Below, piece by piece: positions 12,740-45,812 of a stretch of DNA of 64,000 nucleotides (positions are counted from its first letter, which is position 1; each line of letters opens with the position of its first letter). Made by a program: the position numbers and the translations under genes. The notes under the pieces are model-generated. The model made no database searches. It was given only the letters and a program-made list of their open reading frames with translations, and was not told where the DNA came from. Source of the DNA: Eledone cirrhosa. Lineage: Eukaryota. The stretch covers positions 205,778,001-205,842,000 of the forward strand of contig OZ024740.1 of the NCBI GenBank assembly GCA_964016885.1, in the 5' to 3' direction.

Positions 12740-15700
12740 TGACTGGTATTGGTGTATATATTACTTATAATAATATTAAAAAGAATAAGAATGGCTGGTG
12801 CGTGTTTGTACAAAGTTCCATATCACAGGAGTCAATAATAACACAATAGAAATATTTTACCACGTGTCGTGATGGTGTAGTTGGTGAGTTGGTCTCAACT
12901 CCAAGACTGGAGCGTATAAAGAAGAGAGAGAGAAGGCAGGAGTCATCTCTTCATAGGCAGGAGTCATCTCTAGGGAGAGAAGGCAGAAGTCATCTCTAGG
13001 GAGAAAAGGCAGTAATTATCTCTTCATAGGCAGAAGTCAGCTCCACCATTATGCATGTTGACTCTTCGCAAATCGCCGCCAGAGAGTGAATTATTTTTGG
13101 TGACGTCAGAGCTACGTGCATGTAACTCTGTATAGCTGTCACCAAGCACACGACAGGTGTTGCTTCGCTACATATAGCCCTCCTCCAGATGACCAATTGA
13201 TGAAGAAGTAAACATATGTAGTGAGAAGCAAGGCAAAGATAGGTAATAAACAAAAGAAATGTTTGCACAAACAGCAAACAAAAAGCAGACACATGCAAAA
13301 CAAACACATGTGCAAAATAGCCACATGCAAAACAGCCACATGCAAAACAATCAATAAAATGCAACAAATCGTAAGAAAGACAAAAGCAACAAGGGCAGCT
13401 TAAATGTACACAGTTTGACACAGTTTTTGGGGCTAGTTTGTTTTACAGTTTGTTTCCAGAAAGGCTCCAGTGGCCAGTTCATATAATAAAAGTTTGGAAG
13501 AGTTCTTTGGGCCAGTGGACTCTTCAACCGGAACAGGTCGTGGTCTTGTATCTAGGTGAGGGTGGGGCAGAAGGAGCAGGTGTGTGTGCAAAGGAGAAAG
13601 ATGGGGCCATATGTGGCTCAGTGGTGTGAGCATCTGTTTGGGCCCATTTAAGTCTATCAACCGCAATGGTCTCTCTGGATCCCTTAATGTCTACTGTGAA
13701 ATGTTTATCAGAATGAGCTAACACACGGTAGCGTCCAGAGTACGGTTGTGTGAGAGGTGGTCTCACAGCATCATTTCTTACAAACACATGGGTCCACGAG
13801 GCAATATCCCTCGGGACTGCAGTTTTTACAGTTTGTTTCCTCGTATCCATCGGCGGCAGGTCCTCGTATCCATCGGCATAGAGTCAGGAGAAGTCCGTAG
13901 AGCAGCTTTTAGTTGTCGGTGGAAACGCTCCACCATTCCGTTAGATGCAGGATGATACAAAGTTGTTCGGATGCATTTAGCACCCATGATCTTCGTTAAT
14001 TCATAGAAGAGATTCGATTCAAACTGCCTTCCATGGTCCGTTGTAATCGTGGTTGGCACTTCAAAGCGGACAATCCATCCTGATACTAGGGCACGCACTG
14101 TTGTTTCAGCAGTGATGTCTTTCAAGGGGATGGCTTCAGGCCATCGCGAAAAACGATCAATAACAGTCAATAGGTAAGTATGACCACCACTGACTGGCCA
14201 AGGTCCCACGATGTCCACATGAATGTGCCAGAAACGGGCGCCCGGTTTACTGAAAGTACCGAGCGGAGTCTTAACGTGTTTATGGATTTTCGATTTCTGG
14301 CAAGCAATGCAGGAACGGCACCAAGCAGTAATATTGCGCCTCATATTTGGCCAGAAGAATCTGGATGTTATGAGCTTTACTGTGGCAGAAGATCCTGGGT
14401 GGGAAATGCTGTGTAAAGCAAGAAACACAGTACGACGATGGTTTAATGGGACGAATGGTCTCGGTGAATCCAAGGAAACGTCGCAGAGAATCTGTCTGTC
14501 TGCGGTGGGCAATGGCAGGTATTTCAAATTACTCGTCACAAATTTGGCTGATGTAATATCCAACGATTCCTGTGCAGGTTGGTCTGCTGCCAAGTGATTT
14601 AAATCGATGTCATGGGATGACGCAATCGAACTGATCGGCAATCGAGACAGGGCGTCAGCCGCTGTGTTCAATGAGCCTGGAATGTATTGGATGTTGTTTG
14701 TGAATTGCGAGATAAAGTCGAGATGCCTTGTTTCTCTGGGCGAGTACTTGTCGGACTTTGCCCTTAAAGCGAAGGTCAAAGGTTTATGGCCAGTATATAT
14801 TGTAAAACACCTTCCTTCGAGCATATGTGAAAAATGTTTCACAGAAAGGTAGATGGCTAACAGCTCCTGGCCAAAGGTGCTGTAGCGAGTTTCTGCAGGT
14901 TTCAACTTCCGGGAGAAAAATTCCAATGGTTGTTGGTGATTGTCACTACTCTGTTGTAAGACTGCACCCACTGCAGTATCCGACGCATCAACACAAAGTG
15001 AAAGCTTGGCATTGGACACTGGGTGGGCCAGCAAAGATGCACTAGCCAATGCTAATTTGGCTTTTTGAAAATCCTCGAGTTGAGTCTGAGTCAAAGAGAT
15101 TTTTTTTCCCTTTCCTTTCTTTTCTTTCTTTAGATTGGAGAAGGAGATGGCATCACATGATGTGTCTCAGCCAATCAGATGGCTGCAATTCAGAGAAGAA
15201 TGACAATTGATGGGAAAATTGGCGGACCAGTCAGCCATTGTGAATTTTTTTTTTTGTTAAACGAACAATTTTCAATTTCGTTTTTTCGCATAGTTGCAAG
15301 AAATAAAGTATTAGTTTTGTCATCAATTTTTTTTTTTTTATATGTTCTATGTTTCTCTTGGGTAAATACTTGTTAAAAGAAAAAAATAATATATTTGCTA
15401 TGAAGGCTTCATAGAGTCGAATGCATTTTTGAAATGTATAATGTTCGAAGGTTGCGTTTAAAAAAAATAATGTTGGAGTGTTCTAAACGGCAAGGAAATG
15501 GTGCTCAAGAATGTTAAATAATTCAATGGGATTACCCATATAGCAGAAGTTTTTAGAAGTTTTTAGAAGTTTCTAGAAGTTTTTAGAAGTTTTTAGAAGG
15601 CTGTGTAATCCATAATCGGGGTCAACCACTGACTGGTATTGGTGTATATATTACTTATAATAATATTAAAAAGAATAAGAATGGCTGGTGCGTGTTTGTA

Positions 15701-17689: not shown

Positions 17690-20600
17690 ATGACCATGCT
17701 GTAAAATGGAGGGGTAGAGAGGGCCCATGAGTCCAGTAAGACATCCTCTCTAGTGCTGGTGGCACAAATAAAAGCACCCAGTCCATGCTGTAAAGTGGTG
17801 TTGGTGTTTGGAACGGCATCCAACCAGTGTATCAATGCCAAAACGATTATAAGCACAGTAACAAATTTATAGGAACAACAAAATATGAAGACGTCGCATC
17901 TCAGAGTTGCAACACTTAATGTTGGCACTCTCAGAGGTAGATCTGCTGAAATAGCGGAGATGCTGGAGAGAAGGCATGTGGATGTGTGCTGTGTGCAAGA
18001 GGTGAGATGGAGAGGTGCCTCTGCGAGACTAGTCGCAGGCAAACATCTTAGCTATAAGCTTTTCTGAGTAGGTAAGGATGATGGGTTAGGGGGAGTAGGC
18101 ATTTTCTAGGACGGAGGACGGAGACATCGTTATACTAGCAGGGGACTTCAATGGACATGTTGGACAGCTCCAGGATGGTTACACTGGGGTACATGGTGGG
18201 CACGGTTACGGCTCAAGAAATGAAGAAGGAGTGAGACTTCTTGAATTTTGTGATGCAAGTACACTGATTATTTGCAACACTAACTTCCAGAAACCTGCCA
18301 ACCACCTAATAACCTACAAATCAGGCGAGCACATAAGCCAGATTGACTTCTTACTAGTTAGGCAGCAGGACAGGCAGATGGTGGCTAATACCAAGGCATA
18401 CCCTGGGGAAGAATGTACCCCACAGCATAGATTAGTCGTTGGTGATATTTCAGTAAGCAAGAGATGGAATGAGACATACAGGAAGGTGTGGAGAAGAAAG
18501 GTCTGGAAGCTAAAAGACCTTTCACTAAAATACAAATTTAGGAAACCCCTTCAAGATGTGTATGACGAAAAAGAAGACGATTTAGAGACGTATAACATAG
18601 ATAATAACTGGAATTTCTTGTGACAACTTACTGCAGGCTACTGATGAAACTTGTGGCTGGAGCAGAGCTCCAACCAGACAGAGAGTGACCTGATGGTGGA
18701 ACAGCACAGTAGATAAGGCCATTAGAGACAAAAGACTAGCATGGAAGGCTTGGAAAAAGGGTGGGAGTAGAGAAGGATATACAGCCGCTAAGAGAGAAGC
18801 TAGACATCAGGTGTACTTAGCACGCAGGGAGGCTGAGAGTAGGAGGTTTGCCAATGTTCTGCGACGGGAAGATCAGAGGCGTGCGGTGTTCCACATTGCA
18901 AGGCAGTGTGTCAATGCAAATCAGGATGTTGTTGGAGATAAATGTGTCCGGAATGATGCCGGTGTACTTAGTGTCACGAATGATCAGAAAAAGGAGGCCC
19001 GGAAATGTCATTATGAGAGACTGATGAATGTGGAAAACGAATGAAAAACGAAGAGATCCGACAGAGGGACCAGCTATTGAGATTGACGAATATAGGGTCC
19101 AAGAGGCGATTAAGGAAATGAAAAATGGTAAGGCTGCTGGACCATCGGGGATAGTTGCTGAGATGCTGAAGGCATCAGGGGACGTAGGCACTAAACTGGT
19201 TGCACGCATCATCAATAAGGCTATATATGGTGGTGTCATACCCAAAGACTGGTGCAGCAGTATTCTCATAAATTGCTACAAAGGTAAAGGGAATGCTCTG
19301 GAGAGGAGCAATTATAGGGGTATGAAACTGATGGATCAGGTTATGAAAGTGGCAGAAAGGATATTAGCACAACTAATTAGAGAAAGGGTCAAACTAGATG
19401 AGATGCAGTTTGGCTTTGTGCCTGGGAAGAGTACAACAGATGCCCTCTTCTTGGTGAGACAATTACAAGAGAAGTTCTTAGAGAAAAATAAGCCACTATA
19501 CTTAGCCTTTGTTGACCTAGAGAAAGCCTTTGATAGGGTACCCTGATCTGTCATCTGGTGGTCCCTAAGGAAACTAGGTGTTGAGGAATGGCTTGTGAGG
19601 ACAGTGCCAACTTTGTACAGAGGTACTGTCAGTAAAGTCAGGTTAGGAATGGAGTTTAGTGAGGAATTCCAGATACAAATAGGAGTACATCAAGGTTCGG
19701 TGCTCAGCCCGCTCTTGTTCATTATAGTCCTCCAAGCCATAACAGAGGAGTTTAAGACTGGCTGTCCATGGGAACTTCTCTATGCTGACGATCTGGTTCT
19801 TATAGCAGAATCAGTAAAGGAGCTAGAGAATAAATTCTGGCTATGGAAACAGCAGTTGGAAGCAAAAAGACTGAGAGTGCACCTAGCTAAGACAAAAGTG
19901 TTGATGAGTAGAAAAGAGGACAAAACTCTGATTCCGTCAGGGAAATGGCCATGTTCGATATGCAGAAAAGGAACTGGCAAAAATTCTATAAAATGCACAC
20001 AATGCAGATCCTCAGTACACAGGAGATATAGCGGGATAGCAGGCAAACTAACAGGTAGGGAGAAATACGTATGCAGTAGGTGTACAGGGAAATTAGACAG
20101 TAGAAGTCGCATTGATAGATACATTTTTCAAATGCAGGCGGGTGCTATAGAAATGGTGGATAGCTTCCGGTACCTAGGAGATCAGATTAGCATGGGAGGG
20201 GGTTGTTCCGAGGCCATAGTATCTAGAATAAGAACGGGTTGGAAGAAGTTTAGGGAGCTGCTTCCTCTGTTGACGAAGAAGGGTTTCTCCCTGCATATGA
20301 AAGGCTGGTTATATGATGCCTGTGTGAGGAGCGCGATGCTGCATGGTAGTGAGACATGGGAAGCAACTGCAGAGGATATGCGACGGCTGGAGAGAAATGA
20401 GGCAGGCATGCTCCGTTGGATGTGCAATGTCAATGTGCGTGAACGACCCAGCATGAATGTGTTGAGAGAGAAACTGTGTCTGAGAGGGATAGAATGTAGC
20501 GTGCGAGAGAGGAGACTGGGTGGTATGGGCATGTGATGCGCATGGAGGATGACCGATGGGTGAAGAAGTGCCAGGAAATGCTAATTGAAGGAAGACGTGG

Positions 20601-20758
20601 TAGAGGTAGACCACGAAAAACATGGGTGGAGGTGATGAGAACAGATCTCAGATCGCTGAAGCTCACGGTGGAGATGACGAAGGACCGCAACAAGTGGAGA
20701 GATGCTGTGCTGAATAAGACCCGTCCCACCCTTGCAAGCAGGGAAAAGCGGACGTAAA

Positions 20759-20790
<32 letters not shown>
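17690..20790 (+). mobile_element. RTE-clade LINE, near full length but degenerate (5'UTR, partly deleted APE, RT, PHD-like finger, (GAT)n tail)
   Basis: LRVATLNVGTL..VCCVQEVRW (APE), AGDFN, FVDLEKAFDRVP, GVHQGSVLSP, LLYADD, with several stops and frameshifts. Closely similar to 30038-32740. Confidence 0.93.
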
Positions 20791-20895
20791 ATACATATAT
20801 ATATATATATAAGTTATTCTGAGTTGAGTCGGAGGTAACTACAGTAAGTAAGGTACTCAATACATAGCAAAGTAAAAATGTTTTAATATAGAAGA

Positions 20896-20944
20896 GCTTC
20901 TACAGGACTAGAACTGTTTCATTCGTGAGATATCATCAGGAAGC
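20896..20944 (-). ncRNA. Type I hammerhead ribozyme motif, family A
   Basis: On -: GCTTC CTGATGA TATCTCACGAAT GAAA CAG-TTCTAGTC-CTG TA GAAGC (stem I, core, weak stem II, GAAA, stem III, GUA site). Confidence 0.7.
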
Positions 20945-20984
20945 TGACTTTGGGGGGGGGGGGGTAGAATTAACATTAATATAT

Positions 20985-21360
20985 GGAGGCACATGGCTTA
21001 GTGGTTAGAGCATTGGCCTTGCAATCGAAAGGTTGTGAGTTCAATTCTCAGACCGGGTGATGTGTTGTTTCCTTGAGCAAGACACTTTATTTCACATTGC
21101 TCCAGTTTACTCAGCTGTAGAAATGAGATGATAGGGACTGGGGTCCCTATCATTCCACTGCAAAGTGGTCGTGGAGGTGCCACGGCAAAAAAGCACCCAG
21201 TACTCACTGTAAAGTGGATGTCTAGGTGCCCAGTACTCACTGTAAATGAGGTTGGTGTTAGGAAGGGCATCCAGCTGTAGAAATCAAGCCAGAATCAGTT
21301 GCCGTCCCACCCTTGCAAGCAGGGAAAAGCGGACATAAAATGATGATAATGATGATGATA
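20985..21360 (+). mobile_element. tRNA/CORE-like SINE family 2 with RTE-derived body and tail (partial copy also at ~36730-37065 -)
   Basis: A box TGGCTTAGTGG, B box GAGTTCAATTC, CCTTGAGCAAGACACTT. The 3' end CCCACCCTTGCAAGCAGGGAAAAGCGGAC.TAAAATGATGAT matches the RTE LINE end. Confidence 0.88.
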
Positions 21361-21565
21361 TCTAAGGGACTCGTTAGGTTTGTGGGACGGGTAATAGAGG
21401 GAAGTATCTAGGTCGAGAGTGACATCTAAAAAGTTGGCTCTAGTCATATTAGATTCTATGGTTATACTAAATCCTAGATTACGGAAGAACAAGCTTAAGT
21501 TTCTCCGAAACCCATCAATGGTTTTGGGGTTAACTTTGTGCAAGGCAAAGAGGCCGTCGTCTCGG
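21360..21565 (-). pseudogene. Penelope-like RT fragment
   Basis: RDDGL...FRNLGFSITIESN..ANFLDVTLDL....PSHKPN, homologous to the RT at ~28000-28400. Confidence 0.8.
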
Positions 21566-21987
21566 GAATGTGCTTGTTGACACCTGGAATATATATTAAG
21601 AGAAACTTCACAATAAGGGGAAGCACCCCAACACTTGAATCTGTTTATAGAACCCTTTCTGCCTTTGTCACCCTTATTTCAGCCTTAAAGAATTAGCTTC
21701 TAAAGAATTTCCCTTTTCTTTAAACCAATGAAACCCACCCATCCTGTAGACACCTGCCTTACAGGCATTGTTAGTTTAAGAGATAAACAAGGATTGGTAT
21801 TCCAAATTTGAATTTGTTTACAGTATTCTTTCTGCCTTTGTTAATGTTATAGCTTTAAAGAATTAGCTTTTAATGAACTCCCTTTTCTTTTAATCCATCA
21901 ACCAATGACCACCACCCATCCCAATCTCCACCCTCTCCTACCACCAGAAAAGAAAAGATATAAATACCACCACTTACTTGGACAGCC

Positions 21988-22038
21988 AGCTTCCTGATGA
22001 TTTCTCACGAATGAAACAGTTCTAGTATTGTAGAAGCT
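21988..22038 (+). ncRNA. Type I hammerhead ribozyme motif, family A
   Basis: AGCTTC CTGATGA T-TTC-TCAC-GAA-T GAAA CAGT-TCTAGT-ATTG TA GAAGCT. Predicted cleavage is after 22032. Confidence 0.75.
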
Positions 22039-22048
22039 CTTCTATATT

Positions 22049-22118
<70 letters not shown>

Positions 22119-22860
22119 TTAATACAATAACAGAGATAGTTTAAAACTAAACTCTGACTGGTAACCATCTCACTCAACAAACATTAGGTTATATTTAAAT
22201 ATATACCCAATTTTAGTGTTTGGGGTGCTAACAATATGTATAATGTGGAAAAGCCAGTTGTATTATTTTATGAGATATAATTAAAGTTAAAGTATATCTC
22301 TTTCCAAACATTGTTTCATTATAAGTTTTCTACAAGTTGGGAGAATGTTTCCAGTTTATGTAGAAGCCTAATATATATTCATGTAAGAATATATTTAGGT
22401 GGGCACTTATAAATCATCAGTGGAAGCCCGTTAAACTTTGATATAAGAAAATAATTTCTTACCGCTGTCAAAAATCGTGTCCGTAAAGTTAACCTCTCTC
22501 GCCTCGAATGACCGCCAAATTTGAAATTCCAGCAGTTTTGGGCTGAGGAAGTATCATAGCGACACGAAGCGGGAAGGGGAGACAACCCACGATCCACGAA
22601 ATGAGGAAAAAAAAATAATATACACGCGGGTTAATTAGTTTTTTTGAAAACATTATCAATCCAACGTGTTTAAGAACTCAATTGAAAATAAAAAAATAAA
22701 TATATGCTTGTATAAATTACACACGCATATAGATATTTTCTTAGGCTAAATCAGAAGTTGTACCCGAATAAGAACCGCTTCTCATAACCGCAGTAAATGC
22801 AGAAAGTTGCCTATAAAGGGCAAATGGGAATATAATTCTCCGGCCGAATTAAGAGTAAAA

Positions 22861-23331
<471 letters not shown>

Positions 23332-23493
23332 AAATTTTGCTCTACGTGGCTGAATACAATAAATGTAATCTGAGTTTTTTTTATATTAATAATAACATTC
23401 GATTTGTTTGCAATTAAGCAAACAAGCCTCAATTTTATAGCCATGTCAGTAGAATGAACACTTCATTCTTGCTCTTATGTTGGCTTGCGAACA

Positions 23494-23543
23494 GAACTGC
23501 AGATACTAATGTTTCTGGATATTACCCTTCATCAGTACAGCTC
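23494..23543 (-). ncRNA. Type I hammerhead motif, family B (slightly degenerate)
   Basis: On -: GAGCTGTA CTGATGA AGGGTAATATCCA GAAA CATTAGTA TC TGCAGTTC. Confidence 0.6.
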
Positions 23544-23812
23544 ACTGTTCACCTGCCAAATTGTCAGAGCTAGTGAAAATATATGCTATTTTCAAAAATA
23601 CACAGTGACTGATCGGCCTGATTTGCATATTAGCAGACTGGCTGATCAGTCAGATCTGCATATTAGCAGATCTGGCTGATCAGTCAGATCTGCATATTAG
23701 CAGATCCACTGATCAGCCAGATTTGCATATCAGCAGACTGGCCAGTCAGTTTCCTGTATACTAGCGATAAATGGCCGGCTTCACCAGCCTGACAGTTTGG
23801 CAGGTGAACAGT

Positions 23813-23862
23813 GAGCTGTACTGATGAAGGGTGATACCCAGAAACATTAATGTCTGCAGTTC
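23813..23862 (+). ncRNA. Type I hammerhead ribozyme motif, family B
   Basis: GAGCTGTA CTGATGA A-GGGT-GAT-ACCC-A GAAA CATTAATG TC TGCAGTTC, with a GUC triplet and a palindromic minimal stem III. Confidence 0.8.
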
Positions 23863-24006
23863 TCTTCGCATGCCAACATAAGAGCAAAAATGAAGTGTTC
23901 ATTCTACTGACATGGCTATAAAATTGAGCCTTGTTTGCATAATTGCAAACGAATCGAATGTTATTATTAATATTCGAAAAACTCAGATTATATATATACA
24001 TATACA

Positions 24007-24991: not shown

Positions 24992-25283
24992 TATATATAT
25001 ATATATGCGTGTGTGTATGTATGTATGTATATATATATACATATATCAGAATGGAGGCGGTTAAAACCATTACTCACCAGAATACTTTAAACCTGGGGTA
25101 GTAGAGTGGGTAATATAAAAATGGCAGGAGCTCAGCCGTCAGGGTCCTGAATTTTTCATATATATCTATATTCTAAAACAGAGAATGTTTGTCATTCTCT
25201 CCGATCACTAAAACTCGAGAACCACCCAACCGATTGTTTTCAAACTTTGCACATGTAATACTTATTTTAATATATATATAATT

Positions 25284-26467
25284 ATATAAGTTAAAACAAT
25301 GAAATAAAAAATTAAGTCATTAGAAATATAATTCACTGCTTTACGATCGTTTCTAGGTGATGATAATACATCGTAACTATACTTCGATATCGATCTATGT
25401 AAGGTTAGTTACAAAATATCAGATAAAGAGAATATTTACTTACATGCATATCACCAGCTGTTGTCAAAAGCAATAATAATTTTATTCAAAATTAGTAGTA
25501 AATTAGTATTATGTTTAGTTCTATGACCTTGTTTGGAGGTAGTTGAAGAACAAACCAATCAGATTGTTTTATTCCATATGAATTTAAAATGAAAAATAAT
25601 TCTCTTTAGTTGAGGTCATGACCCTTTGAAAGGAATGGTTGAATGGTGTTAATAACAGAATTGCCATAAAAAATCTATTAGGAAAAAGGGGATTGTCATA
25701 TTGATAGTTGAATGTATCTGGTATAGTGAAGTTTAAAAGGAATGTAAAAATTAAATGATGATTAGTGTTGTATGGAGTTTTTAGGTGAATATAAATTAAG
25801 GTCATGACCAGGAAAGATAGTATATTAAAAGATGAAAATTATAATAAGATAATGAAATATAGTAATACAATAATATAATATAATTGTTTCTACATTTGGC
25901 ACAAGGCCAGCAATAACCCAGTACATTACTGGTACTTTATTTTATCGACCCCGTAAGGATGAAAGGCAAAGTTTACCTCGGCGGGATTTGAACTCAGAAT
26001 GGCAAGGGTCGTAACTCTATGCATCAAAGCATGGCGTCCAACCCTCTGCCGATACTGCCAATTCACCGCCCTAATATAATATAATGTAACACAATATAGT
26101 ACGGTGTGGTACATTGTACTTAGTATAATACAGCGTATGATACGCCTTAAAATACCTTCAAGTATGTTTATGTATAAATAATCAAACTCAGATAAATACA
26201 TGTTGGCATAGTCAAAACGCATAAATTTCATAGATCACAAAGTGCATATACCCACATTATAGATAGAGTTATAGTTATATTGATACTCAATTAAAAACAT
26301 ACATACACATAAATAGATGCAAATATATACATACATCTACACATGTGCATACAATCATATACACATATATCTATATATATATATACATTTACATATACAC
26401 ACCTATACACATATATATCTATATGTATGTACACACACATATATGTACACACACACATATAAACACT

Positions 26468-26545
<78 letters not shown>

Positions 26546-29500
26546 TACATAGATACATATTTACTCATGCAATTACGGGTGGTTGTGTACCTTGTTGCCC
26601 TTAGTCATTAACGCATAAATCTAAGGAAGCTAAACAATTAAAAGGTAAGAAATAAGCATGAATGCGTATAATTAGGGGCAAGGGATACTAACAAATGTTA
26701 CGCTACTCAGAATTATATTGAGTTGCTATTTAGAATATTTAATTAGGTTTATAGTATTTAAATGTTCTTCGTATACGGTGATTACAAACTATGATCAGTT
26801 CCTGTCTTTTATTCAATAAATCGTCCTTAGATTTAGTAATTTCCAAGATCTCCCCTGAACATAACCTGCATTCTCTCCTGTTCCCAAGATATGGAGTTCT
26901 TTGTAGAATGGTGTTCCACGATAGCTTGAAATCTATTTTTTTCTTTTTATAGTTATTTACCGCTTCAGCTAAAGATGTGGTGTTAGCTAGTTTAGTATTG
27001 TTGAAACTACTAGAGTGTGCGTAAAATCTTTTCTTAAATGTGTTTGATGTAGATCCTATATATGTTTTGTTGGAGTCTGTAGTAGACACACTGCATTTAT
27101 ATATTACATTATTAATCAAACAGTTGCCATTTAAGGGGCAAATGCTTCTATTTCTGCAATTACAACCATATGTAAGATGGTTGTTGGGGGTTGCTTATAC
27201 TATTCTCATTAATCCTTGAGCTATTCCTATTGTAATTCATGATAGCAGGAGAATGAAGGTTGCTTTGTGGGTGGTTTAGTGCTAGGGTTGTATTGTGACT
27301 TTGTGTTCTGTTGTTTTTGTGTTAGTGATTTGGGTGGTTGTGTTTTCCAGTTTGAAGGATTGTATTATTTGTCCTTTTAAAAGGTGCAGTCCTATTTAAA
27401 TTATGTCGTGGTGGTGTGGTCATATTATTTTTAATTTTATAAATGTTGTAGTTGCTTATTTTTTGCTGGAGATTGTTTGATGTAGAGTATGAGAATTTAA
27501 CAGTATATCTGTTAAATATTTGGTGGTATCTGTGGTTTGGTGGAAAATGTTTATGTAGAATTTCGAAGAATTTTTGGGGATTTGTCCAATAGTTTGCAGG
27601 TTGAAGGGTGCGTTGTACCATGTTATGTTTCTTTTGCGGTTTTTAGTTAAGCTCTTATTCCCACTTATATTAATGTGCTGTGTTCTAGAAGAGTTCTTAT
27701 GGTTAGTATTCGTATTTGTGGAATTTGGTAAACTACTGTGGTTGTATTTGGTTTTATTATTGGGTAGATTATGAGATTTTGAATGCTTGGTATTCATATG
27801 TGAGTTGATAATATTGGTCATAGATCGTGTAGTAATAGTTGTTGTGGTTTTTCGGTTGTTTGGTGTAATAGGAATAATCCCTTTAGGTATTTGTTTCAAT
27901 GGTATATTTTGGTGTTTGTAGTTTTTGCTAGGTTTTATGTTTTGGTCCATAGTAGTGTTGGGGATATATGAGATTGTTTTCTTTATATCCACTTCTAGTT
28001 AAGGTCTCGTTGTAGAAGGGTGCATTATTATAAAATATATCTTCATTGGAAGATAATTTAGAAAGTCTAAGAGATATGTTATATACTAAGTTTTTGAGTA
28101 TAGAGCCAGGGTGGTTAGAGCGTGAATGTACATAGTGTAGATTCTGGTTGGGTTTGTGGTAAGGTTGATAAATATTCGTAGAGAGGTCTAAGGTAACGTC
28201 AAGGAAATTAGCTACTTTTGAAGTGTTTTCAAAGGTGATGTTAAGGTTGTAGTAGTCCTTGAGGAATTTTTTAATTTGTTTTTTTTGTTTTTCTCTATAT
28301 TGGAATTGCTAAGATTGTTAGATAACAATAGACAATCATCTCGATAAAGACCACCATTGAGGTGGGGAAAAGAAGAATGAATATTATAGAGAAGAAATAG
28401 TCAACGAGGTTTGTAAGTTGAGCAGAGTCCATGGATCCCATCGTAATATCGAATAAGTTGTTATATGTGTTTCTTGTCCAGTGTTCTTCTTGGAAGTTTA
28501 ATAAGGTTTTTCTAGCGTGAGTTATGGTATTGATTTCTTCAGTAGATAAATCCGATCTATTTCTGGCGAAGATCAGTGCTTTGTTTAAAAGAATTGGAGA
28601 AATCGAAGAATAGTAAGAATCGATGTCGAATTGAATGAATGAAGCTGAGTTTTTATTCTCGATGCTAGTGAACCATTCAATAACTTGGGAAGTGTTATCC
28701 CATAATGGAAGTGTTACAAATTTTCTAATTTGCGGAATGATTCGATCAATAATTTTCTTGCTGATATTACAGATATCAGATTTTGATGGGCATATCAGTC
28801 TAATAGATGGGTTCGAATTAAAGTCAGATTTATGGTCCTTCAGGTTGAAGTGCGGGATTTTAGGCGTGAAAGGCTCAGTCCTATCTTCAATATTAAGTTT
28901 TTTTTACTATATCACATGATATGTTGTTCAATGATGTCAGTGTGGTGGTATTTGCTTTCTTATAGTTTTTTCTAAGTTCTTTATATATGAACTGGTTATA
29001 TTTATCGATATCCATATGGTACAGATTACCAGTTTTATCAGAATAGACATGGACCTTGTTTGAATTTTTCAGTTGTAGAAGGGTAGAGTCTAATCCCTTT
29101 TGGAATTCAGATTTGTGTTTTCTGAACTTTATGTTTTTAATCATGTTCAGTAGGGTGCTCTCGACATTTTCAAGTTGAATATTATGAGGATTTTTGTATG
29201 TTTTAAATTCATAGCGGTACTTCATTTCGTTTGTATTGGTTTTGTTGTCAAAATGATAGGCCCTCCATCGCATTCTCCTAATAAATTGGTTAGTTTTTTG
29301 TATGAGCAAGAGTAGATATTCATCTATACACATTCAACTATCAATTTGACAATCCCTTTCTTCCTAATAGATTTTTTATGGCAATTCTGTTATTAACAAC
29401 ATTCAACCATTCCTTTCAAAGGGTCATGACCTATATGGAATAAAACAATCTGATTGGTTAGTTCTTCAACTACCTCCAAACAAGGTCATAGAACTAAACA

Positions 29501-29863: not shown

Positions 29864-30035
29864 TATAATTATATATTCGTGTACAGATATTTTTACATAC
29901 ACAATAACAAAATATAAACAAACGTATTTATTTCACGAGGCTCGATAAGGATAAATATATATCAAATATATAAGAACCGTAGAGCAAATCCCGAGCAACG
30001 CCGGGCCATTCTGCTAGTATACATATATATACATA

Positions 30036-32717
30036 TTGCAAACAACCACAATGACAGAGGACGGAGACATCGTTATGCTAGCAGGAGACTTCAATGGTCA
30101 TGTTGGACAGCTCCAGGATGGTTACACTGGGGTACATGGTGGGCACGGTTACGGTTCAAGAAATGAAGAAGGAGTGAGACTTCTTGAATTTTGTGATGCA
30201 AGTACATTGACTATTTGCAACACAAACTTCCAGAAACCTGCCAATCACCTAATAACCTACAAATCTGGTGAGCACATAAGCCAGATTGACTTCCTGCTAG
30301 TTAGGCAGCGGGACAGGCAGATAGTGTCTAATACCAAGGCATACCCTGGGGAAGAATGTACCCCACAGCATAGGTTAGTTGTTAGTGATATCTCAGTAAG
30401 CAAGAGATGGAATGAGACATATAGGAAGGTGTGGAGAAGAAAGGTCTGGAAGCTAAAAGACCTTTCACTAAAATTCAAATTTAGGAAAGCCCTTCAAGAT
30501 GTATATGACGAAAAAGAAGACGATTTAGAGACGTATGACATAGATAATAACTGGAAGTTCTTACGTGACAACTTGCTGAAGGCTACTGATGAAACCTGTG
30601 GCTGGAGCAGAGCTCCAACCAGACAGAGAGTGACCTGGTGGTGGAACAGCAGTGTAGATAAGGCTATTAGAGACAAAAGACTAGCATGGAAGGCTTGGAA
30701 TAAGGGTGGGAGTAGGGAAGAATATACAGCCACTAAGAGAGAAGCTAGACGTCAGGTGTACTTAGCACGCAGGGAGGCAGAGAGTAGGAGGTTTGCCAAT
30801 GTTCTGCGACGGGAAGATCAGAGGCGTGCGGTGTTCCACATTGCAAGGCAGTGTGTCAATGCAAATCAGGATGTTGTTGGTGATAAATGTGTCCGGGATG
30901 ATGCCGGTGTACTTAGTGTCACGAATGACCAGAAAAAGGAGGCCTGGAAATGTCATTATGAGAGTCTGATGAATGTGGAGAACGAATGGGAGAGAGAGAA
31001 ATTACCCTTGGTAGATCCGACAGAGGGACCAGCTATTGAGATTGACGAATATAGGGTCCAAGAGGCGATTAGGGAAATGAAAAATGGTAAGGCGGCCGGA
31101 CCATCGGGAATAGTTGCTGAGATGCTGAAGGCATCAGGGGACGTAGGCACTAAACTGGTTGCACGCATAATCAATCAGGCTATATATGGTGGTGTCATAC
31201 CCAAAGACTGGTGCAGCAGTATTCTCATAAATTGCTACAAAGGTAAAGGGGATGCTTTGGAGAGGAGCAATTATAGGGGTATAAAACTGATAGATCAGGT
31301 TATGAAAGTGGCAGAAAGGATTCTAGCACAACTAATTAGAGAAAGGGTCAAACTAGATGAGATGCAGTTTGGTTTTGTGCCTGGGAAGAGTACAACAGAT
31401 GCCCTCTTCTTGGTGAGACAAATGCAAGAGAGGTTCTTAGAGAAGAATAAGCCACTATACTTAGCCTTTGTTGACCTAGAGAAGGCCTTTGATAGGGTAC
31501 CCCGATCTGTCATCTGGTGGTCCCTAAGGAAGCTGGGTGTTGAGGAATGGCTTGTAAGGACAGTGCAAACTTTGTACAGAGGTACTCTCAGTAAAGTCAG
31601 GGTAGGAATGGAGTTTAGTGAGGAATTCCAGATACAAGTAGGAGTACATCAGGGTTCGGTCCTCAGCCCGCTCTTGTTCATTATAGTCCTCCAAGCCATA
31701 ACAGAGGAGTTTAAGACTGGCTGTCCATGGGAACTTCTCTATGCTGACGATCTGGCTCTTATGGCAGAATCAGTAGAGGAGCTAGAGAATAAATTCCGGC
31801 TATGGAAACAGCAGTTGGAAGCAAGAGGACTGAGAGTAAATCTAGCTAAGACAAAAGTGTTGATGAGTAGAAAAGAGGACAAAACCCTGATTCCGTCAGG
31901 GAAATGGCCATGTTCGATATGCAGAAAAGGAACTGGCATAAATTCTATAAAATGCACACAATGTAGGTCCTGGGTACACAAGAGATGTAGCGGGATAGCA
32001 GGCAAACTAACAGGTAGGGAGAAATATGTATGCAGTAGATGTACAGGGAAATTAGACAGTAGAAGTCGCACTGATAGACACATTTTTCAAATGCGAGAGG
32101 GCGCTATAGAAGTGGTGGATAGCTTCCGGTACCTAGGAGATCAGATTAGCATGGGAGGGGGGTGTTCCGAGGCCATAGTATCTAGAATAAGGACGGGTTG
32201 GAAGAAGTTTAGGGAGCTGCTTCCTCTGTTGACGAAGAAGGGTTTCTCCCTGCGTACGAAAGGCCGGTTGTATGATGCCTGTGTGAGGAGCGCGATGCTG
32301 CATGGTAGTGAGACATGGGCAGCTACCGCAGAAGATATGCGACGGCTGGAGAGAAATGAGGCAAGCATGCTCCGTTGGATGTGCAGTGTAAATGTGCGTG
32401 AACGACCCAGCATAAATGTGTTGAGAGAGAAACTGTGTCTGAGAGGGATAGAATGTAGTGTACGGGAGAGGAGACTGAGGTGGTATGGACATGTGATGCG
32501 CATGGAGGATGACCGATGGGTGAAGAAGTGCCAGGAAATGCCAGTTGAAGGAAGACGTGGTAGAGGTAGACCACGAAAAACATGGGCGGAGGTGGTGAGA
32601 ACAGACCTCAGATCATTGAAGCTCACGGTGGAGATGACGAGGGACCGTGACGAGTGGAGAGATGCTGTGCTGAATAAGACCCGTCCCACCCTTGCAAGCA
32701 GGGAAAAGCGGACGTAA
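30036..32717 (+). CDS. RTE LINE ORF (C-terminal half of APE, RT, PHD-like finger), uninterrupted for 893 codons, 5'-truncated
   Basis: AGDFNGH, QIDF, QHRLV, LYADD, CSIC..CTQC..WVHKRC..CSRC, RGRPRKTW. A (GAT)n tail follows the stop. The element starts at ~30038 in a TA-rich tract, so the listed start codon is not the real one. Confidence 0.93.
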   Translation: MQTTTMTEDGDIVMLAGDFNGHVGQLQDGYTGVHGGHGYGSRNEEGVRLLEFCDASTLTICNTNFQKPANHLITYKSGEHISQIDFLLVRQRDRQIVSNTKAYPGEECTPQHRLVVSDISVSKRWNETYRKVWRRKVWKLKDLSLKFKFRKALQDVYDEKEDDLETYDIDNNWKFLRDNLLKATDETCGWSRAPTRQRVTWWWNSSVDKAIRDKRLAWKAWNKGGSREEYTATKREARRQVYLARREAESRRFANVLRREDQRRAVFHIARQCVNANQDVVGDKCVRDDAGVLSVTNDQKKEAWKCHYESLMNVENEWEREKLPLVDPTEGPAIEIDEYRVQEAIREMKNGKAAGPSGIVAEMLKASGDVGTKLVARIINQAIYGGVIPKDWCSSILINCYKGKGDALERSNYRGIKLIDQVMKVAERILAQLIRERVKLDEMQFGFVPGKSTTDALFLVRQMQERFLEKNKPLYLAFVDLEKAFDRVPRSVIWWSLRKLGVEEWLVRTVQTLYRGTLSKVRVGMEFSEEFQIQVGVHQGSVLSPLLFIIVLQAITEEFKTGCPWELLYADDLALMAESVEELENKFRLWKQQLEARGLRVNLAKTKVLMSRKEDKTLIPSGKWPCSICRKGTGINSIKCTQCRSWVHKRCSGIAGKLTGREKYVCSRCTGKLDSRSRTDRHIFQMREGAIEVVDSFRYLGDQISMGGGCSEAIVSRIRTGWKKFRELLPLLTKKGFSLRTKGRLYDACVRSAMLHGSETWAATAEDMRRLERNEASMLRWMCSVNVRERPSINVLREKLCLRGIECSVRERRLRWYGHVMRMEDDRWVKKCQEMPVEGRRGRGRPRKTWAEVVRTDLRSLKLTVEMTRDRDEWRDAVLNKTRPTLASREKRT

Positions 32718-32769
32718 AATGATGATGATGATAAATGATGATATATATAGATATATATAATATTGAAAC

Positions 32770-32873
32770 GGCTTCTACAGGACTAGAACTATTTCATTCA
32801 AAGGAAATTATCAAGAAAGCTTCCTGGTGATTTCCTTCGAATGAAACAATTCTAGTCCTGTAGAAGCCATTTC
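32770..32873. ncRNA. Head-to-head pair of family A hammerhead motifs (degenerate - copy; + copy at 32819-32867 with CUGGUGA core)
   Basis: + copy: GCTTC CTGGTGA TTTCCTTCGAAT GAAA CAATTCTAGTCCTG TA GAAGC. The left half is its diverged reverse complement. Confidence 0.6.
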
Positions 32874-32936
32874 TATATTATATATATAATATATATATAT
32901 ACATATATGTATATATATATATATTAATATAGATGA

Positions 32937-32984
32937 GATTCTACAGGACTAGAATTGTTTCATTCTTTAGAAATCATCAGGATG
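32937..32984 (-). ncRNA. Family A hammerhead motif with truncated stem I
   Basis: On -: TC CTGATGA T-TTC-TAAA-GAA-T GAAA CAATTCTAGTCCTG TA GA. Confidence 0.55.
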
Positions 32985-32988
32985 TATA

Positions 32989-33022
<34 letters not shown>

Positions 33023-34095: not shown

Positions 34096-34526
34096 GTATC
34101 TTAGTTATATGAGCAAAATAATCTGTCTTATTGATTTTAGCATGATCAACAGGATTGGTGAATTATAAGATTGGTGAGATAAGGTAAAATCAATGGAAAT
34201 ACAGCAGGTTAAAAGCCTGACCAAAACTGTTATTTAGACTACCCCTCTACTAAGCTCTGACTATGTCTAAGCATATATAACCCTATAGTATAGTGTGTGT
34301 ATGTGTGTGTTTGTAGGCATGTGTATATATATATACCTTTAATTAATATATATATATGTATATATATATATTGTTATACTTTGGGAGGGTCATGTTGCCA
34401 ATAAGAAACACACGCACCAGTTGCTTTCACTTCAATTTAATTTATTATATATTTATAAATTTACAAATTTATAAATTTCTGGTTGGTTGGTTGGTTCCAC
34501 AACCAGATAGTTGTTTATATATATAT

Positions 34527-34571
34527 AGTCATAGTTCTTTCGTCACACACTCTGTGACCTCTTCAGTGACT
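34527..34571 (-). ncRNA. Type I hammerhead motif, family C (mirror copy)
   Basis: Exact reverse complement of 34677-34721. Confidence 0.7.
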
Positions 34572-34676
34572 GGGGATTTCTTTCTTCGTTTCTGTGCCTT
34601 TCCTTTCTTCTATCCTACGCCATTTTGGCGTAGGATAGAAGAAAGGAAAGGCACAGAAACGAAGAAAGAAATCCCC

Positions 34677-34721
34677 AGTCACTGAAGAGGTCACAGAGTG
34701 TGTGACGAAAGAACTATGACT
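34677..34721 (+). ncRNA. Type I hammerhead ribozyme motif, family C
   Basis: AGTCA CTGAAGA G-GTCAC-AGAGTGT-GTGAC GAAA GAAC TA TGACT: 5-bp stems I and II and a minimal stem III. Confidence 0.72.
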
Positions 34722-34934
34722 ATATATATATAAACAACTATCTGGTTGTGGAACCAACCAACCAACCAGAAATTTATAAATTTGTAAATTTATAAATATA
34801 TAATAAATTAAATTGAAGTGAAAGCAACTGGTGCGTGTGTTTCTTATTGGCAACATGACCCTCCCAAAGTATAACAATATCGGTTTCAACACACGATTTC
34901 AGATAAAGAATCTTGCTAAACAAATTCAGAAACG

Positions 34935-40728: not shown

Positions 40729-42525
40729 AATATGACTCCAGATTTCCCTAGCCCATAAACAAAACACATTTAGAAAATCAAAGCTAATCTCGAACCCTAG
40801 CCAGATATAGACTAAACACCTAAACTCAACCTCAGACCCCATCCATATTTCAATTAAACCAACCACTAAAGCGCATCAACCATCAACCTGAATCCCTGTT
40901 TTCTGTTAACGAATCCTTACTTTCTTTTTCTTTACACCTCTATCTTTATAATGTAATACAGTATTTCGCCATCATTCATATTTCCTTTATTTTTATATTT
41001 AAAAATAACATCCCATATTTTAATGGCTCATTTAGTATTGTGATTTATTCCAGTTATTAATATAGCCTAGTGATATTCAAATGTTTTTTTCTTAACCCTT
41101 TAGCATTTACATTAATCTATATTTACTATTATATTTTCACGGTAGACACTTTACCTCACATAATTATTTCAAGTGATATCAAATCTATGAGATTTTGATA
41201 TTATTTATTTTGAGAACAACATCTTAACATCATTATGAGTGACTGGTTACAGCCGGTTTGAACAGAAAGAAGTGAAAGAATTAGGCCAGTTTAAATGCTA
41301 AAGGGTTAAGAGGCTTGTCGCTCCTAAATTTTATGTATACTTTTAAATGTTTATGATGAAACAAATGAGATGGAGTTAATATGTGTTAGGAAATTTTTTA
41401 TTTATTTATTTATTTTTTGGTTTATGCCAGATACCTAACATAGAATATACTGGAATATTATAAGGCGGCGAATTGGCAGAGTCATTAGAACACGGTATTA
41501 GTTTTGGTTCTCTGCTCACTGAGTTCAAATTCCAACGAGGTCAACTTTGCCTTTCATCCTTTCGAGGTTGATAAAAAAAGTACCAGTCTAGTACTGGGAT
41601 CGATTCTTTGTACTCAGGTCTGGAGAGAGTTGGGCTCCGCCAGGCTTAAAATGCCCAAGAAATGCCGTATTTTAATACAGGACTCCTATAACTCTATCAG
41701 GAGTTACAGGACCATACCATACCATACTGAGAATCTTTTAACTTACCATACCTTTAGATTTCATACGTGGAAATGTGTGTAAGACAAAAATGTTTTCAAT
41801 TCCATCTGGACACATGGATTTATCATTTATCTCTATGCAATATCTTGGATTAATTTACCGTATGGATTACACCTTGGATGAATCAGTTCATTCTATTTGT
41901 GGATTGAGTTAGACATTTTCTTGACATAACTTTGCCCCCCATATGGCCTAGGGAACTGTATCTCACACATATTTCTGCATTTTATCATGGGTGGTTGGGA
42001 TCATTTTATCATGGCATTTGGGATCATTTTATCATGGGTGGTTTTCATATCTTTGATATAACTGATGGGACCTCTTGAGCTTTTGTTTGGAAAGTTATTC
42101 ATGGCTGTATACCCCTCTCAACACCAACCACTTTACAGTGTGTACTGGGTGTATTTTATCATGACACTAGTACCAGGAAGGTTATTGGTCATTGACTCCA
42201 CTGAAGAGCCCTTTCTACCTTAGATACATATATATACATACACACATAGGTATGCATGTATATGTATATGTAGCAATATCCATAGGTGTGAAAAAGGGAA
42301 AAGGAAAACAGTGCTCAATCAGGAAGAGAGCAGAAATATTATATTATATTATATTATATTATATATATTAATATTTTGTTATACTTTGGGAGGGTCATGT
42401 TGCCAATAAGAAACACATGCACCAGTTGCTTTCACTTCAATTTATTATAATAAATTTATAAATTTAGGAATTTATAAATTTCCGGTTGGTTGGTTGGTTC
42501 CACAACCAGATGGTTGTTTATATAT

Positions 42526-42570
42526 TGTCAAAATTCTTTCGTCACACATTCTGTGACCTCTTCAGTGACT
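42526..42570 (-). ncRNA. Family C hammerhead motif (diverged stem III) within solo repeat ~42377-42665
   Basis: On -: AGTCA CTGAAGA GGTCACAGAATGTGTGAC GAAA GAAT TT TGACA. Confidence 0.5.
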
Positions 42571-43189
42571 GGGGATTCTTTTCTTTGTTTTTGTGCCTCT
42601 CCTTTGTTATGTCCTACGCCATCTTGTTTCTGTGTGTGTGTTGTGTGCTCAGTCTGCGCATGCGCCACATAATATTTTGATTATGAAAATATTTTTCATT
42701 TATTAATATTTTGAATAATATATATATACATATATATATTATATATACAATATAATATAATTGTTTCTACTTTAGGCACAAGGCCAGCAATTACCCAGTA
42801 CATTACTGGTACTTTATTTTATCGACCCCGTAAGGATGAAAGGCAAAGTCAACCTCGGCGGGATTTGAACTCAGATCGTAAAGGGACGTAACTATGCTGG
42901 AAAGCATGGCGTCCGACCCTCTACCGATACTGCCAATCCACAATATAATATAATATAACATATATATGTGTATATGTGTGTGTGCGCGTGTGTGTGTGTA
43001 TGTGTGTGTGTGTGTATGTGTATATTACATATTATATATATATATGACTGGGGTTGTATATTGAATGATATATGAAATGTCCATGTAAATAAACATTTTT
43101 ATAGTCGTTATGAAATTTTAGTACCAGTGATTAATCTTCCACTGGCAACCAAGCAAGGGAGAGCACTCTAATGGCACTGTCACTGGTTC

Positions 43190-44189: not shown

Positions 44190-45812
44190 AAGCTGGCAAC
44201 TTCAATGGACATGTTGGCTAACATCAGGATGGCTACACTTGACTACATGGAGTATATGGTTATGACTTGAGAAATGAAGAGATGGGCGAGGCACCTAGAA
44301 TTCTGTGATGTGAATGAATTAACTATTTCTAATATCAACTTTAGGAAACTAGTCAGCCACTTGATCATCTACAACACAAGCCAGATTGACATTTTGTTAG
44401 AAAAAATGGATAGGCAGATAGTTATGAATGTTAAGTCATTCTCTGGAGGATAATACACTGCTCAACTAAGATAGTTATTAGTGACATCAGAATATGCACA
44501 AGATAGAACAAGAAATACAGGAAAATATGGAGAAGGAGAGTATGGACACTAAAGGACCTCTTTTTTAAATATATGTTCAGAAAAACCCTATGTAATGTAT
44601 ATGAATAGAAGGTGGAGGAGTTAGCTATATATGATATAGAGGACAACTGGAAGTTTCTGTGACAACCTACTACAGGCTACTGATGAGAATTGTGGGTGGA
44701 AAAACATCAGACAGACAGAGGGTGACTTGGTGGTGGAACAGCACCATGGATAGAACTGCTAAAGCCAAGAGACAATCATGGAATGACTGGAAAAAAATGG
44801 GGGTTGCAAAGATCAGTTCAGAGTGGCTAAAAGAGAAGCTATATGACAAAATTGAGAACAAGAGGTTTCCAATGTCCTGCAATGTGAGGTGTTCTGCAAT
44901 GCAAAGTAGTGTGCTTGTGAGAACCAAGATGATGAGGAAAAGAGTGTTTGAAATGACACCAGTGTACTTTGTATCACTTTTTGCACAATAGAAGGAGGCT
45001 TGGAAATGCAATTTTGAGAGGTTTATGAATGTAGTGAATGAGTGGATGGAAGAGAGACAACCCATAGCTAACACAACAGAGGGACCAGCTGTTGAAATTG
45101 ACAGTTATGGAATCAAAGAAACAATCATGGAAATGAAAAATGGTAAAGCCATCAGTCAATCAGAGACAGTTACAGACATGCTGAAATCTTCTAGAGAAAT
45201 AGGAGTCAAACTAATCACATGCATAATGAATCAAGTAATACATGATGATGTCATACCCAATGACTAGCATAGCATATACTCATTAATTGTTACAAGGAGA
45301 AAAGATAATGTAATGGAAAAAAAGCAGCTACAGAGACATAAAACTGATAGATTAAGTTATGAAGGTGGCAGGAAGTGTTTTAATACAAATAATTAGGGAA
45401 AGAGTAAAATTAAATGAGATACAGTTTTGGTTTTGTGCCAGGGAGGCGCACCACTGATATTTTCATAGTGAGACAACTATAAGAATCATGAAGCATGGAT
45501 GAGTTGAGAGAAAAAGTGGGTGTAAGGGGATTTAGATGTAACATGCAGAAGAGAAGACTGCACAGGTATGTCAAGGTGATGTGTATGGATGATGATCATT
45601 GAGTGAAGAATTGACAAGAAATCCTACAGGAAGAGAGCTACAGCAGTTGAAAACCAGGAAAACCTGGGCAGAGGTTGTGAGAGCTGGTCTCAAATTGTGA
45701 CAGCTCACAGAGGAGATGATGAAGGACTACAGTGACTGGAGGGATCTCGTACTGAAAAATACCCATCCAACCCAAACATGGAAACACAAATTTAGAATAG
45801 GGATAATGATGA
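44190..45812 (+). mobile_element. Old, heavily degenerate and internally deleted RTE copy
   Basis: Colinear with 30080-31420 and 32410-32730 (RQRVTWWWNS, EGPAVEID, EMKNGKA). Confidence 0.85.

What the first reader, a model, noticed from the sequence alone, without database searches (positions are those of the whole stretch)
23366..23990. Family B element: MITE-like shape whose inverted arms are hammerhead-containing pLTR-like sequences
Seen: ~200-bp diverged inverted arms surround a core of ~29-bp repeats rich in palindromes (TGATCA, AGATCT, TGCA). The + arm has an intact core, a GUC site and the palindromic stem III ACATTAATGT. Established: palindromic minimal stem III is typical of Penelope hammerheads proposed to act as dimers. 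Inference: repeat tools would probably label this a DNA MITE, but it is more likely a retro-mobilised ribozyme element.
Basis: partly seen in the sequence, partly recalled or inferred. Interest (0 to 1): 0.72.

Follow-up and report, generated by a model that had tools for sequence, protein, structure and literature searches.

The report
Fold-back Penelope-type hammerhead retroelement
This is one of thousands of copies of a short non-coding jumping element whose mirror-image arms are two back-to-back copies of one unit, likely pasted in by a Penelope-type reverse transcriptase; it is a known kind of element, but many copies stop where its predicted self-cutting RNA would cut.

Summary
Real, and not a DNA MITE. 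The insertion (23326-23990) is two copies of one ~440-bp hammerhead-bearing unit joined back to back, 3' ends outward, in a (TA)n tract. At least 1,698 arms match one 29-mer exactly. In 131 sampled insertions arms vary in length, tandem and solo forms occur, all 77 simple two-armed copies point tails out, and 52 of 54 carry the 40-nt tail at one end only: the published Penelope-like (PLE) insertion signature. Corrections: the repeats are 33 bp, not 29; the perfect stem-III palindrome is a rare mutation of a G·U-palindromic family form; the core has an extra A (rare, but in print); the core is not more conserved than flanks among copies; Rfam finds no hammerhead; no autonomous partner sharing the arm was found. 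Of interest: 5' ends pile up just 3' of the predicted cut (24 of 58 against 1 of 34), only partly replicated in a sister subfamily, and templates look mostly linear, about 1.5 units. Cleavage is untested. This scan found the same kind of element before on other DNA of this genome.

The parts
23326..23990 (.). Whole insertion: two copies of one ~440-bp unit joined back to back, 3' ends outward
   Evidence: unit period 439 in the natural reference copy L021
23326..23781 (-). Left copy, nearly a full unit (unit positions 41-463): 33-bp repeats, hammerhead, 3' part, long end
   Evidence: blastn of reference unit on window, 89%
23326..23365 (-). 40-nt tail, present at this end only
   Evidence: sequence; 52 of 54 two-armed insertions have one long and one short end
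23494..23543 (-). Hammerhead of the left copy, damaged (G16.2>A at 23504, AUC triplet)
23609..23742 (.). Four 33-bp repeats rich in palindromic words; two exact ATTTGCAT octamers (23621, 23721); likely internal promoter region (inferred, untested)
23780..23990 (+). Right copy, 5'-truncated and inverted (unit positions ~211-423), short end; 2-nt overlap with the left copy at the joint
23797..23876 (+). Predicted extended stem I (about 21 pairs with a 2-nt bulge) enclosing the hammerhead
   Evidence: folds; pair counts
23813..23862 (+). Type I hammerhead: stem I 23813-20/23855-62, CUGAUGA 23821-27, A 23828, stem II 23829-39, extra A 23840, GAAAC 23841-45, loop III 23846-51, GUC 23852-54; predicted cut after 23854
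23291..23326 (.). (TA)n tract at the left end; a short TA run follows the right end at 23990-23998 (likely target site)
   Evidence: TA run at 153 of 179 assignable 3' ends

Best explanation
This is a non-coding retroelement of about 440 bp, with a predicted type I hammerhead, that is likely copied in trans by a Penelope-like (PLE) reverse transcriptase and GIY-YIG endonuclease. Shown: the unit, its thousands of copies, two fixed 3' ends 40 nt apart at (TA)n, variable 5' ends, tails-out inverted pairs with the tail at one end only, and partial tandems under two units. Inferred: a partial tandem is transcribed from the repeat region of its upstream unit, giving mostly linear RNA of about 1.5 units; the PLE protein cuts both strands in (TA)n and starts cDNA at the two internal sites, one per strand; the two 5'-incomplete cDNAs join back to back, which gives the MITE-like shape. 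Inferred, less sure (about 0.55): part of the RNA is cut by the hammerhead, probably as a dimer, before copying, so many arms end at the cut. The window copy is likely a dead end: about 7-8% diverged from other copies, no tandem unit, left ribozyme damaged.
For: Copy number: 1,394 and 1,698 exact 29-mer matches, reversed-pattern controls 0. Of 131 insertions: 77 tails-out pairs, 0 heads-out, 53 one-directional, 1 complex; 179 of 208 terminal 3' ends at two sites, 153 of these 179 at a TA run; 52 of 54 assignable pairs long+short (p=2e-13). Shorter arm 28-514 nt. These match the PLE description in Craig et al. 2021 (PMC8557442, passages) and the two RT start sites that define the tail in Frangieh et al. 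2024 (PMC11167929, parts 1-2 of 4). Both arms of an insertion share variants more than unrelated copies: 236 of 277 against 59%. Double hammerhead -32.6 kcal/mol is the two-molecule minimum; the monomer fold (-8.9) is not the one-molecule minimum (-11.9). Stem I pairs with changes on both sides: 7 against 3.2 in shuffles (5 of 500 reach it) over two subfamilies. PLEs with C-terminal GIY-YIG are abundant here and several carry similar hammerheads and end in (TA)n. 5' ends: 24 of 58 arms at risk stop within 18 nt 3' of the cut against 1 of 34 in the 18 nt 5' of it and 5 of 63 further 3' (p=2e-5 each); nine arms start at the first base after the cut, none 2-7 nt before it (read by eye).
Against: No autonomous element shares the arm: none of 50 GIY-YIG loci from the Pfam search, 30 of the window-type PLE, or 11 of a further family; these are a small share of 10,596 and 63,011 candidates. 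Rfam finds no hammerhead. Core changes 23 against 26 expected; stem II changes 34 against 16.6 expected. In subfamily B the two outer pairs of the 8-bp stem are often lost (21 and 15 of 41 rows unpaired) and the compensated pair has 4 compensated but 9 unpaired rows; those rows were picked on the core, so core invariance there is built in. The cut-site edge replicated only in part in subfamily B: 21 of 79 against 10 of 58 on the 5' side (p=0.22) and 7 of 86 on the 3' side (p=0.002), with no arm clearly at the first base. The pile-up also coincides with the 3' strand of a strong hairpin, so RT stalling could give it. No excess of A>G on the sense strand (0.0113 against T>C 0.0103). Target duplications cannot be read in (TA)n.
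Confidence: 0.88

Rival explanations
1. Same PLE-mobilised element, but the hammerhead is inactive or irrelevant; 5' ends pile up because RT stalls or switches template in the extended stem I.
For: Pile-up range equals the 3' strand of a -35 kcal/mol hairpin; edge not sharp in subfamily B; extra A replaces the usual direct G10.1-C11.1 stack; Frangieh et al. found cleavage unnecessary for insertion in vitro and no RNA reads ending at the cut; 8 of 9 Xenopus dimers did not cleave in vitro (10.64898/2026.07.22.740005).
Against: In subfamily A the commonest 5' end is the first base after GUC and recurs in the upstream unit of tandems; the repeat region also folds (-37 kcal/mol over 121 nt) and shows no pile-up, though it is a weaker control; core, extra A and stem III are kept between subfamilies while stem I changed.
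Confidence: 0.4
2. A circular-RNA retrozyme: the hammerhead cuts monomers that are ligated, and RT runs round the circle.
For: Permuted partial tandems; tandem units share variants (90 of 107); five arms genome-wide run 1.7-1.9 units; circles are documented for canonical type I retrozymes (PMC7229834, passages).
Against: Genome-wide, a motif at 239 occurs twice at unit spacing 25 times, one at 178 only 5 times, against 10-14 expected for a circle (p=0.06-0.005). No array of two full units among 131 insertions or these five. A minority of circular templates is not excluded.
Confidence: 0.2
3. A DNA MITE or foldback transposon that inserts at TA, with a chance or captured hammerhead in its terminal repeats.
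For: The window copy alone has ~210-bp inverted arms and TA at both ends.
Against: 53 of 131 insertions have no inverted arm; arm length 28-514 nt; the two ends differ by the 40-nt tail in 52 of 54; only 14 of 77 pairs hold a whole hammerhead in both arms.
Confidence: 0.02

Closest known systems
Penelope-like elements, insertion architecture (Craig et al. 2021, PMC8557442; passages and supplementary metadata rows seen)
   Same: 5' truncation, partial tandems, inverted 5'-truncated copy giving flanking inverted repeats, 30-40-bp tail at one end only, (TA)n bias.
   Different: No ORF; no sequence match to any autonomous PLE end examined here, whereas non-autonomous Chlamys elements generally match their partner's 3' end.
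Metazoan PLE hammerheads (Cervera and de la Pena 2014, PMC4209133; parts 1-2 of 4 and supplement parts 1-2 of 3 read)
   Same: Type I, unpaired base after A9, short self-complementary stem III suited to dimers; the paper already notes pairs of hammerheads 100-700 bp apart on opposite strands. One of 56 rows of Fig. S3 has an extra A before GAAA and the Hydra row an extra U (row assignment of the A inferred from text order).
   Different: Stem III is longer (10-nt, two G·U) and stem I extends to about 21 pairs; the extra A is family-wide here.
Metazoan non-LTR retrozymes (Cervera and de la Pena 2020, PMC7229834, passages; Li, Clavereau and Pollet 2026, 10.64898/2026.07.22.740005, parts 1-3 of 5)
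   Same: Non-coding unit of a few hundred bases with a type I hammerhead, linked to PLEs.
   Different: Dispersed fold-back pairs and under-two-unit tandems instead of arrays; 5'-end map favours mostly linear RNA; expression and circles untested.
Poseidon_Ac mechanism (Frangieh et al. 2024, PMC11167929; parts 1-2 of 4)
   Same: Two internal RT start sites define the tail; both strands of AT-rich DNA are cut and extended.
   Different: There, uncut RNA was the main substrate in vitro and no reads ended at the cut; here about 40% of subfamily A arms at risk end just 3' of it.
MITEs (Goubert et al. guide, PMC8969392; passages)
   Same: Short, non-coding, inverted flanks, high copy number.
   Different: Ends are unequal, arms variable, many copies have one direction only.

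Membership tests
Penelope-like element (non-autonomous) | Fixed 3' end with variable 5' truncation | tested here: met
   179 of 208 terminal 3' ends at two sites; 5' ends spread over the unit
Penelope-like element (non-autonomous) | Partial tandems forming pseudo-LTRs | tested here: met
   40 arms with a unit restart among 131 insertions
Penelope-like element (non-autonomous) | Inverted 5'-truncated copy at the 5' end, tails outward | tested here: met
   77 tails-out, 0 heads-out of 131
Penelope-like element (non-autonomous) | 30-40-bp tail at one end only | tested here: met
   52 of 54 assignable pairs; 23 more pairs had one end unassignable
Penelope-like element (non-autonomous) | Type I hammerhead with short self-complementary stem III in the repeat | tested here: met
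   Descriptor hit, 0 in 100 shuffles; dimer is the two-molecule minimum; no Rfam match
Penelope-like element (non-autonomous) | Sequence shared with the end of an autonomous RT/GIY-YIG element | tested here: inconclusive
   No match in 91 PLE loci, a small share of the candidates; one unique chimera, L293
Penelope-like element (non-autonomous) | Mobilisation by PLE protein | not testable with these tools
   Needs a biochemical or cell assay
Non-LTR retrozyme | Tandem arrays of two or more complete units each with a hammerhead | tested here: not met
   12 arms hold two same-strand hammerheads but none two full units; sample is chromosome C1 plus two genome-wide patterns
Non-LTR retrozyme | Self-cleavage and circular RNA | not testable with these tools
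   No RNA holder listed; genomic 5' ends are indirect
Canonical hammerhead core | CUGAnGA, GAAA, NUH | tested here: met
   + arm sequence; 16 of 20 arms picked outside the ribozyme keep it
Canonical hammerhead core | G10.1-C11.1 directly next to G12 | tested here: not met
   Extra A in 1,394 matches, 0 without; rare published variant
MITE / TIR DNA transposon | Equal terminal inverted repeats of fixed length in all copies | tested here: not met
   53 of 131 without inversion; shorter arm 28-514 nt; staggered ends
MITE / TIR DNA transposon | Target-site duplication | tested here: inconclusive
   Cannot be read in (TA)n flanks

The most novel reading that the evidence does not exclude
The copies are a fossil record that a PLE-type hammerhead with an A·A variant core cuts its RNA in the germ line, that cut RNA is the template for about 40% of arms, and that the template is a linear ~1.5-unit transcript rather than the circle assumed for retrozymes; one RNA variant feeds both arms of the fold-back.
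Probability: 0.4. Interest if true: 0.6.

Novelty: new member of a known kind. Interest (0 to 1): 0.38.

Why it matters
For annotation: MITE-shaped repeats in PLE-rich genomes can be class I elements, and one test (tail at one end only, tails outward) tells them apart. For mechanism: the papers read here call the role of PLE hammerheads unclear; a short, abundant, non-coding family gives many independent insertion ends, and these point to cleavage in vivo and to a mostly linear template. Both claims are cheap to test in vitro. The element class, the fold-back shape and the extra-A core are already in print.

Tried and rejected
Rfam scans of the window and of 23440-23920: only sub-threshold miRNA-like hairpin hits. 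Partner search by GIY-YIG, by the window's own broken PLE, by a relaxed hammerhead pattern (19 hits) and by the L293 junction (only itself spans it among 40 scored): no partner. No RNA holder listed; contigs laid once gave only variant frequencies. A-to-G editing marks: none. The ~100-200-bp insert at unit position 396 in some copies first looked like a subfamily mark showing two templates per insertion; its length varies, so it is more likely a repeated later insertion of another repeat and was not used. The G/A variation at 301 keeps a pair but is a CpG site, so it was not counted as evidence. An initiator at unit position 227 was considered; 5' ends at 205, 213 and 223-226 lie upstream of it, so only a start region of about 205-240 is claimed. 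Lunse et al. 2017 was not held; it is known here only through a review (PMC6765202, passages). Rows dropped: of 139 loci given, duplicates and edge-cut clusters were removed and L034 was left out as a segmental duplicate; one search left out non-collinear arms. The 18-nt windows were set by the predicted cut but after seeing the histogram.

Full report
Observation. The + arm reads as a type I hammerhead at 23813-23862: 8-bp stem I, CUGAUGA, one A, 4-bp stem II, an extra A, GAAAC, a 6-nt loop and GUC. A descriptor finds it once in the window and never in 100 shuffles. The left arm carries the same motif on the - strand with G16.2>A. Rfam has no hammerhead match at E<=10.

What the unit is. The genome is 3.0 Gb; the element has 4,601 candidates, 40 scored. 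Exact 29-mers occur 1,394 times (ribozyme) and 1,698 times (downstream), reversed controls 0. Copies show one unit of about 440 bp (period 439 in the natural reference L021): repeats, hammerhead, 135 nt, a first 3' end, 40 nt more, a second 3' end. The window copy is a near-full unit on the - strand (23781 to 23326) joined to a truncated unit on the + strand (23780 to 23990). A sister subfamily about 85% alike has 343 and 742 exact matches.

Architecture. From 139 loci on chromosome C1, picked by either 29-mer, 131 distinct insertions were scored: 77 two-armed with tails out, none heads out, 53 one-directional, 1 complex. Of 208 terminal 3' ends, 98 fall at the short site, 81 at the long site, 29 elsewhere; 153 of the 179 abut a TA run. 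Of 54 two-armed insertions with both ends assignable, 52 have one long and one short end (p=2e-13). The shorter arm is 28-514 nt and only 14 of 77 pairs have a whole hammerhead in both arms. This excludes terminal inverted repeats and matches the PLE pattern described by Craig et al. 2021: 5' truncation, partial tandems, an inverted truncated copy and a 30-40-bp tail at one end (PMC8557442, passages). Frangieh et al. 2024 showed that the tail lies between two internal RT start sites and that both strands of AT-rich DNA are cut and extended (PMC11167929). The two arms of an insertion agree at polymorphic sites in 236 of 277 comparisons against 59% between insertions, so both likely come from one RNA variant.

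The ribozyme. The family stem III is ACATTAGTGT in 103 of 129 units; the window's perfect palindrome occurs in 1 of 129 and in about 1% of contig depth. Both self-pair over 10 nt at -8.8 kcal/mol, and the double hammerhead is the minimum-energy fold of two molecules. The extra A is family-wide (0 matches without it). It is rare but in print: one of 56 rows in Fig. S3 of Cervera and de la Pena 2014 has AGAAA and the Hydra row has an extra U; two autonomous PLE families here have the U form. That paper also reports opposite-strand hammerhead pairs 100-700 bp apart. Against function: among arms picked outside the ribozyme the core has 23 changes against 26 expected and stem II 34 against 16.6, as for neutral decay after insertion; an earlier count on 20 arms looked better (5 of 300) but was not corrected for base composition. 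Over both subfamilies stem I has 7 pairs with changes on both sides against 3.2 in shuffles, but the outer pairs are often lost in subfamily B.

5' ends. In 67 arms picked by the downstream 29-mer, 24 of 58 at risk stop within 18 nt 3' of the predicted cut, against 1 of 34 in the 18 nt before it and 5 of 63 in the next 18 nt (p=2e-5). Nine arms of the whole sample start at the first base after GUC and none 2-7 nt before it (by eye); stops recur at the upstream hammerhead of tandems. In 97 subfamily B arms the figures are 21 of 79, 10 of 58 (p=0.22) and 7 of 86 (p=0.002), with no clear start at the first base; pooled p=3e-4. So the pile-up replicates and the sharp edge does not. Because the range is also the 3' strand of the extended stem I, stalling remains possible. 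I put cleavage in vivo at about 0.55.

Linear or circular. Genome-wide, a motif at 239 repeats at unit spacing 25 times and one at 178 five times, against 10-14 expected for a circle; those five reach 1.7-1.9 units and none two. The template is likely mostly a linear RNA starting near 205-240, downstream of the 33-bp repeats, as for PLE promoters in the pseudo-LTR (review PMC6765202, passages). Some circles are not excluded. No A>G excess was seen.

Partner. PLEs abound: 10,596 GIY-YIG candidates and 63,011 for the broken PLE at window 26739-29500. Several with a CX4CXXC linker and C-terminal endonuclease (Neptune/Nematis type by the features) carry hammerheads and end in (TA)n. None of 91 loci compared shares the arm, apart from one inserted copy in L067. 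One subfamily B copy, L293, is fused directly behind a GIY-YIG end on the same strand, but no other of 40 scored places spans that joint. The partner is unnamed.

Literature and earlier notes. Searches; none returned a paper on this family or on genomic 5' ends at a PLE hammerhead cut, but the library lacks most subscription papers, Lunse et al. 2017 was not held, and the preprint's supplements and Craig's sequence files were not seen (only a metadata sheet). The label POU/Oct site for ATGCAAAT is recalled. Earlier notes of this scan describe other families of the same kind in this genome (1,096 notes fit the words); none matched this sequence.

Verdict. A real, ordinary member of a known kind: a non-autonomous PLE-type hammerhead element in the fold-back form. 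The remaining interest is the genomic hint of cleavage and of a linear template. Interest 0.38.

Noticed in passing
window 22860-23295: Perfect 218-nt palindrome centred on (TA)101, directly left of the element, 100% complementary; a very recent fold-back or an assembly artefact.
   Followed up: no
window 34368-34880 and 42373-42626: Another near-perfect fold-back (99%) with a hammerhead-like core in each arm (34682 +, 34566 -, 42565 -); likely a second PLE-type family.
   Followed up: no
window 20880-22060 and 32741-32990: Third hammerhead-like family (20939 -, 21994 +, 32980 -) with a U before GAAA, ending in (TA)n.
   Followed up: no
window 26570-29500 (-), with 25281-25715: Broken PLE: RT-like pieces and a GIY-YIG domain (Pfam); 25281-25715 is an inverted copy of its 5' part. 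No canonical hammerhead seen in the 3' ends of 4 of 30 relatives viewed.
   Followed up: partly
L057-L086, L127-L146: At least four PLE families with C-terminal GIY-YIG carry variant hammerheads (U3-A8 cores, an extra U or C before GAAA, one with GCAA).
   Followed up: partly
unit position 396, e.g. L011:2080-2260, L019:1235-1415: A repeat of 100-200 bp, also at window 25881-26065, is inserted at the same ATT-rich spot in many copies with varying 5' ends: a target hot spot.
   Followed up: partly
L293 (G000:C1:255281967-255284992): Unique chimera: hammerhead-like motif, GIY-YIG end and a full subfamily B unit on one strand, joined at a short shared word; possible template switch between PLE RNA and element RNA.
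   Followed up: partly
L264 (G000:C27:2569200-2572231): 52-bp tandem array whose unit contains a hammerhead core with the same extra A but no evident stems I and III.
   Followed up: no
window 18110-20808, 30053-32763, 44191-45484: LINE-type copies; 30018-32717 is an 899-aa open frame with RT and PHD-like domains.
   Followed up: no
window 13826-15166 (-): LTR-retrotransposon RNase H and integrase fragment; described only.
   Followed up: no
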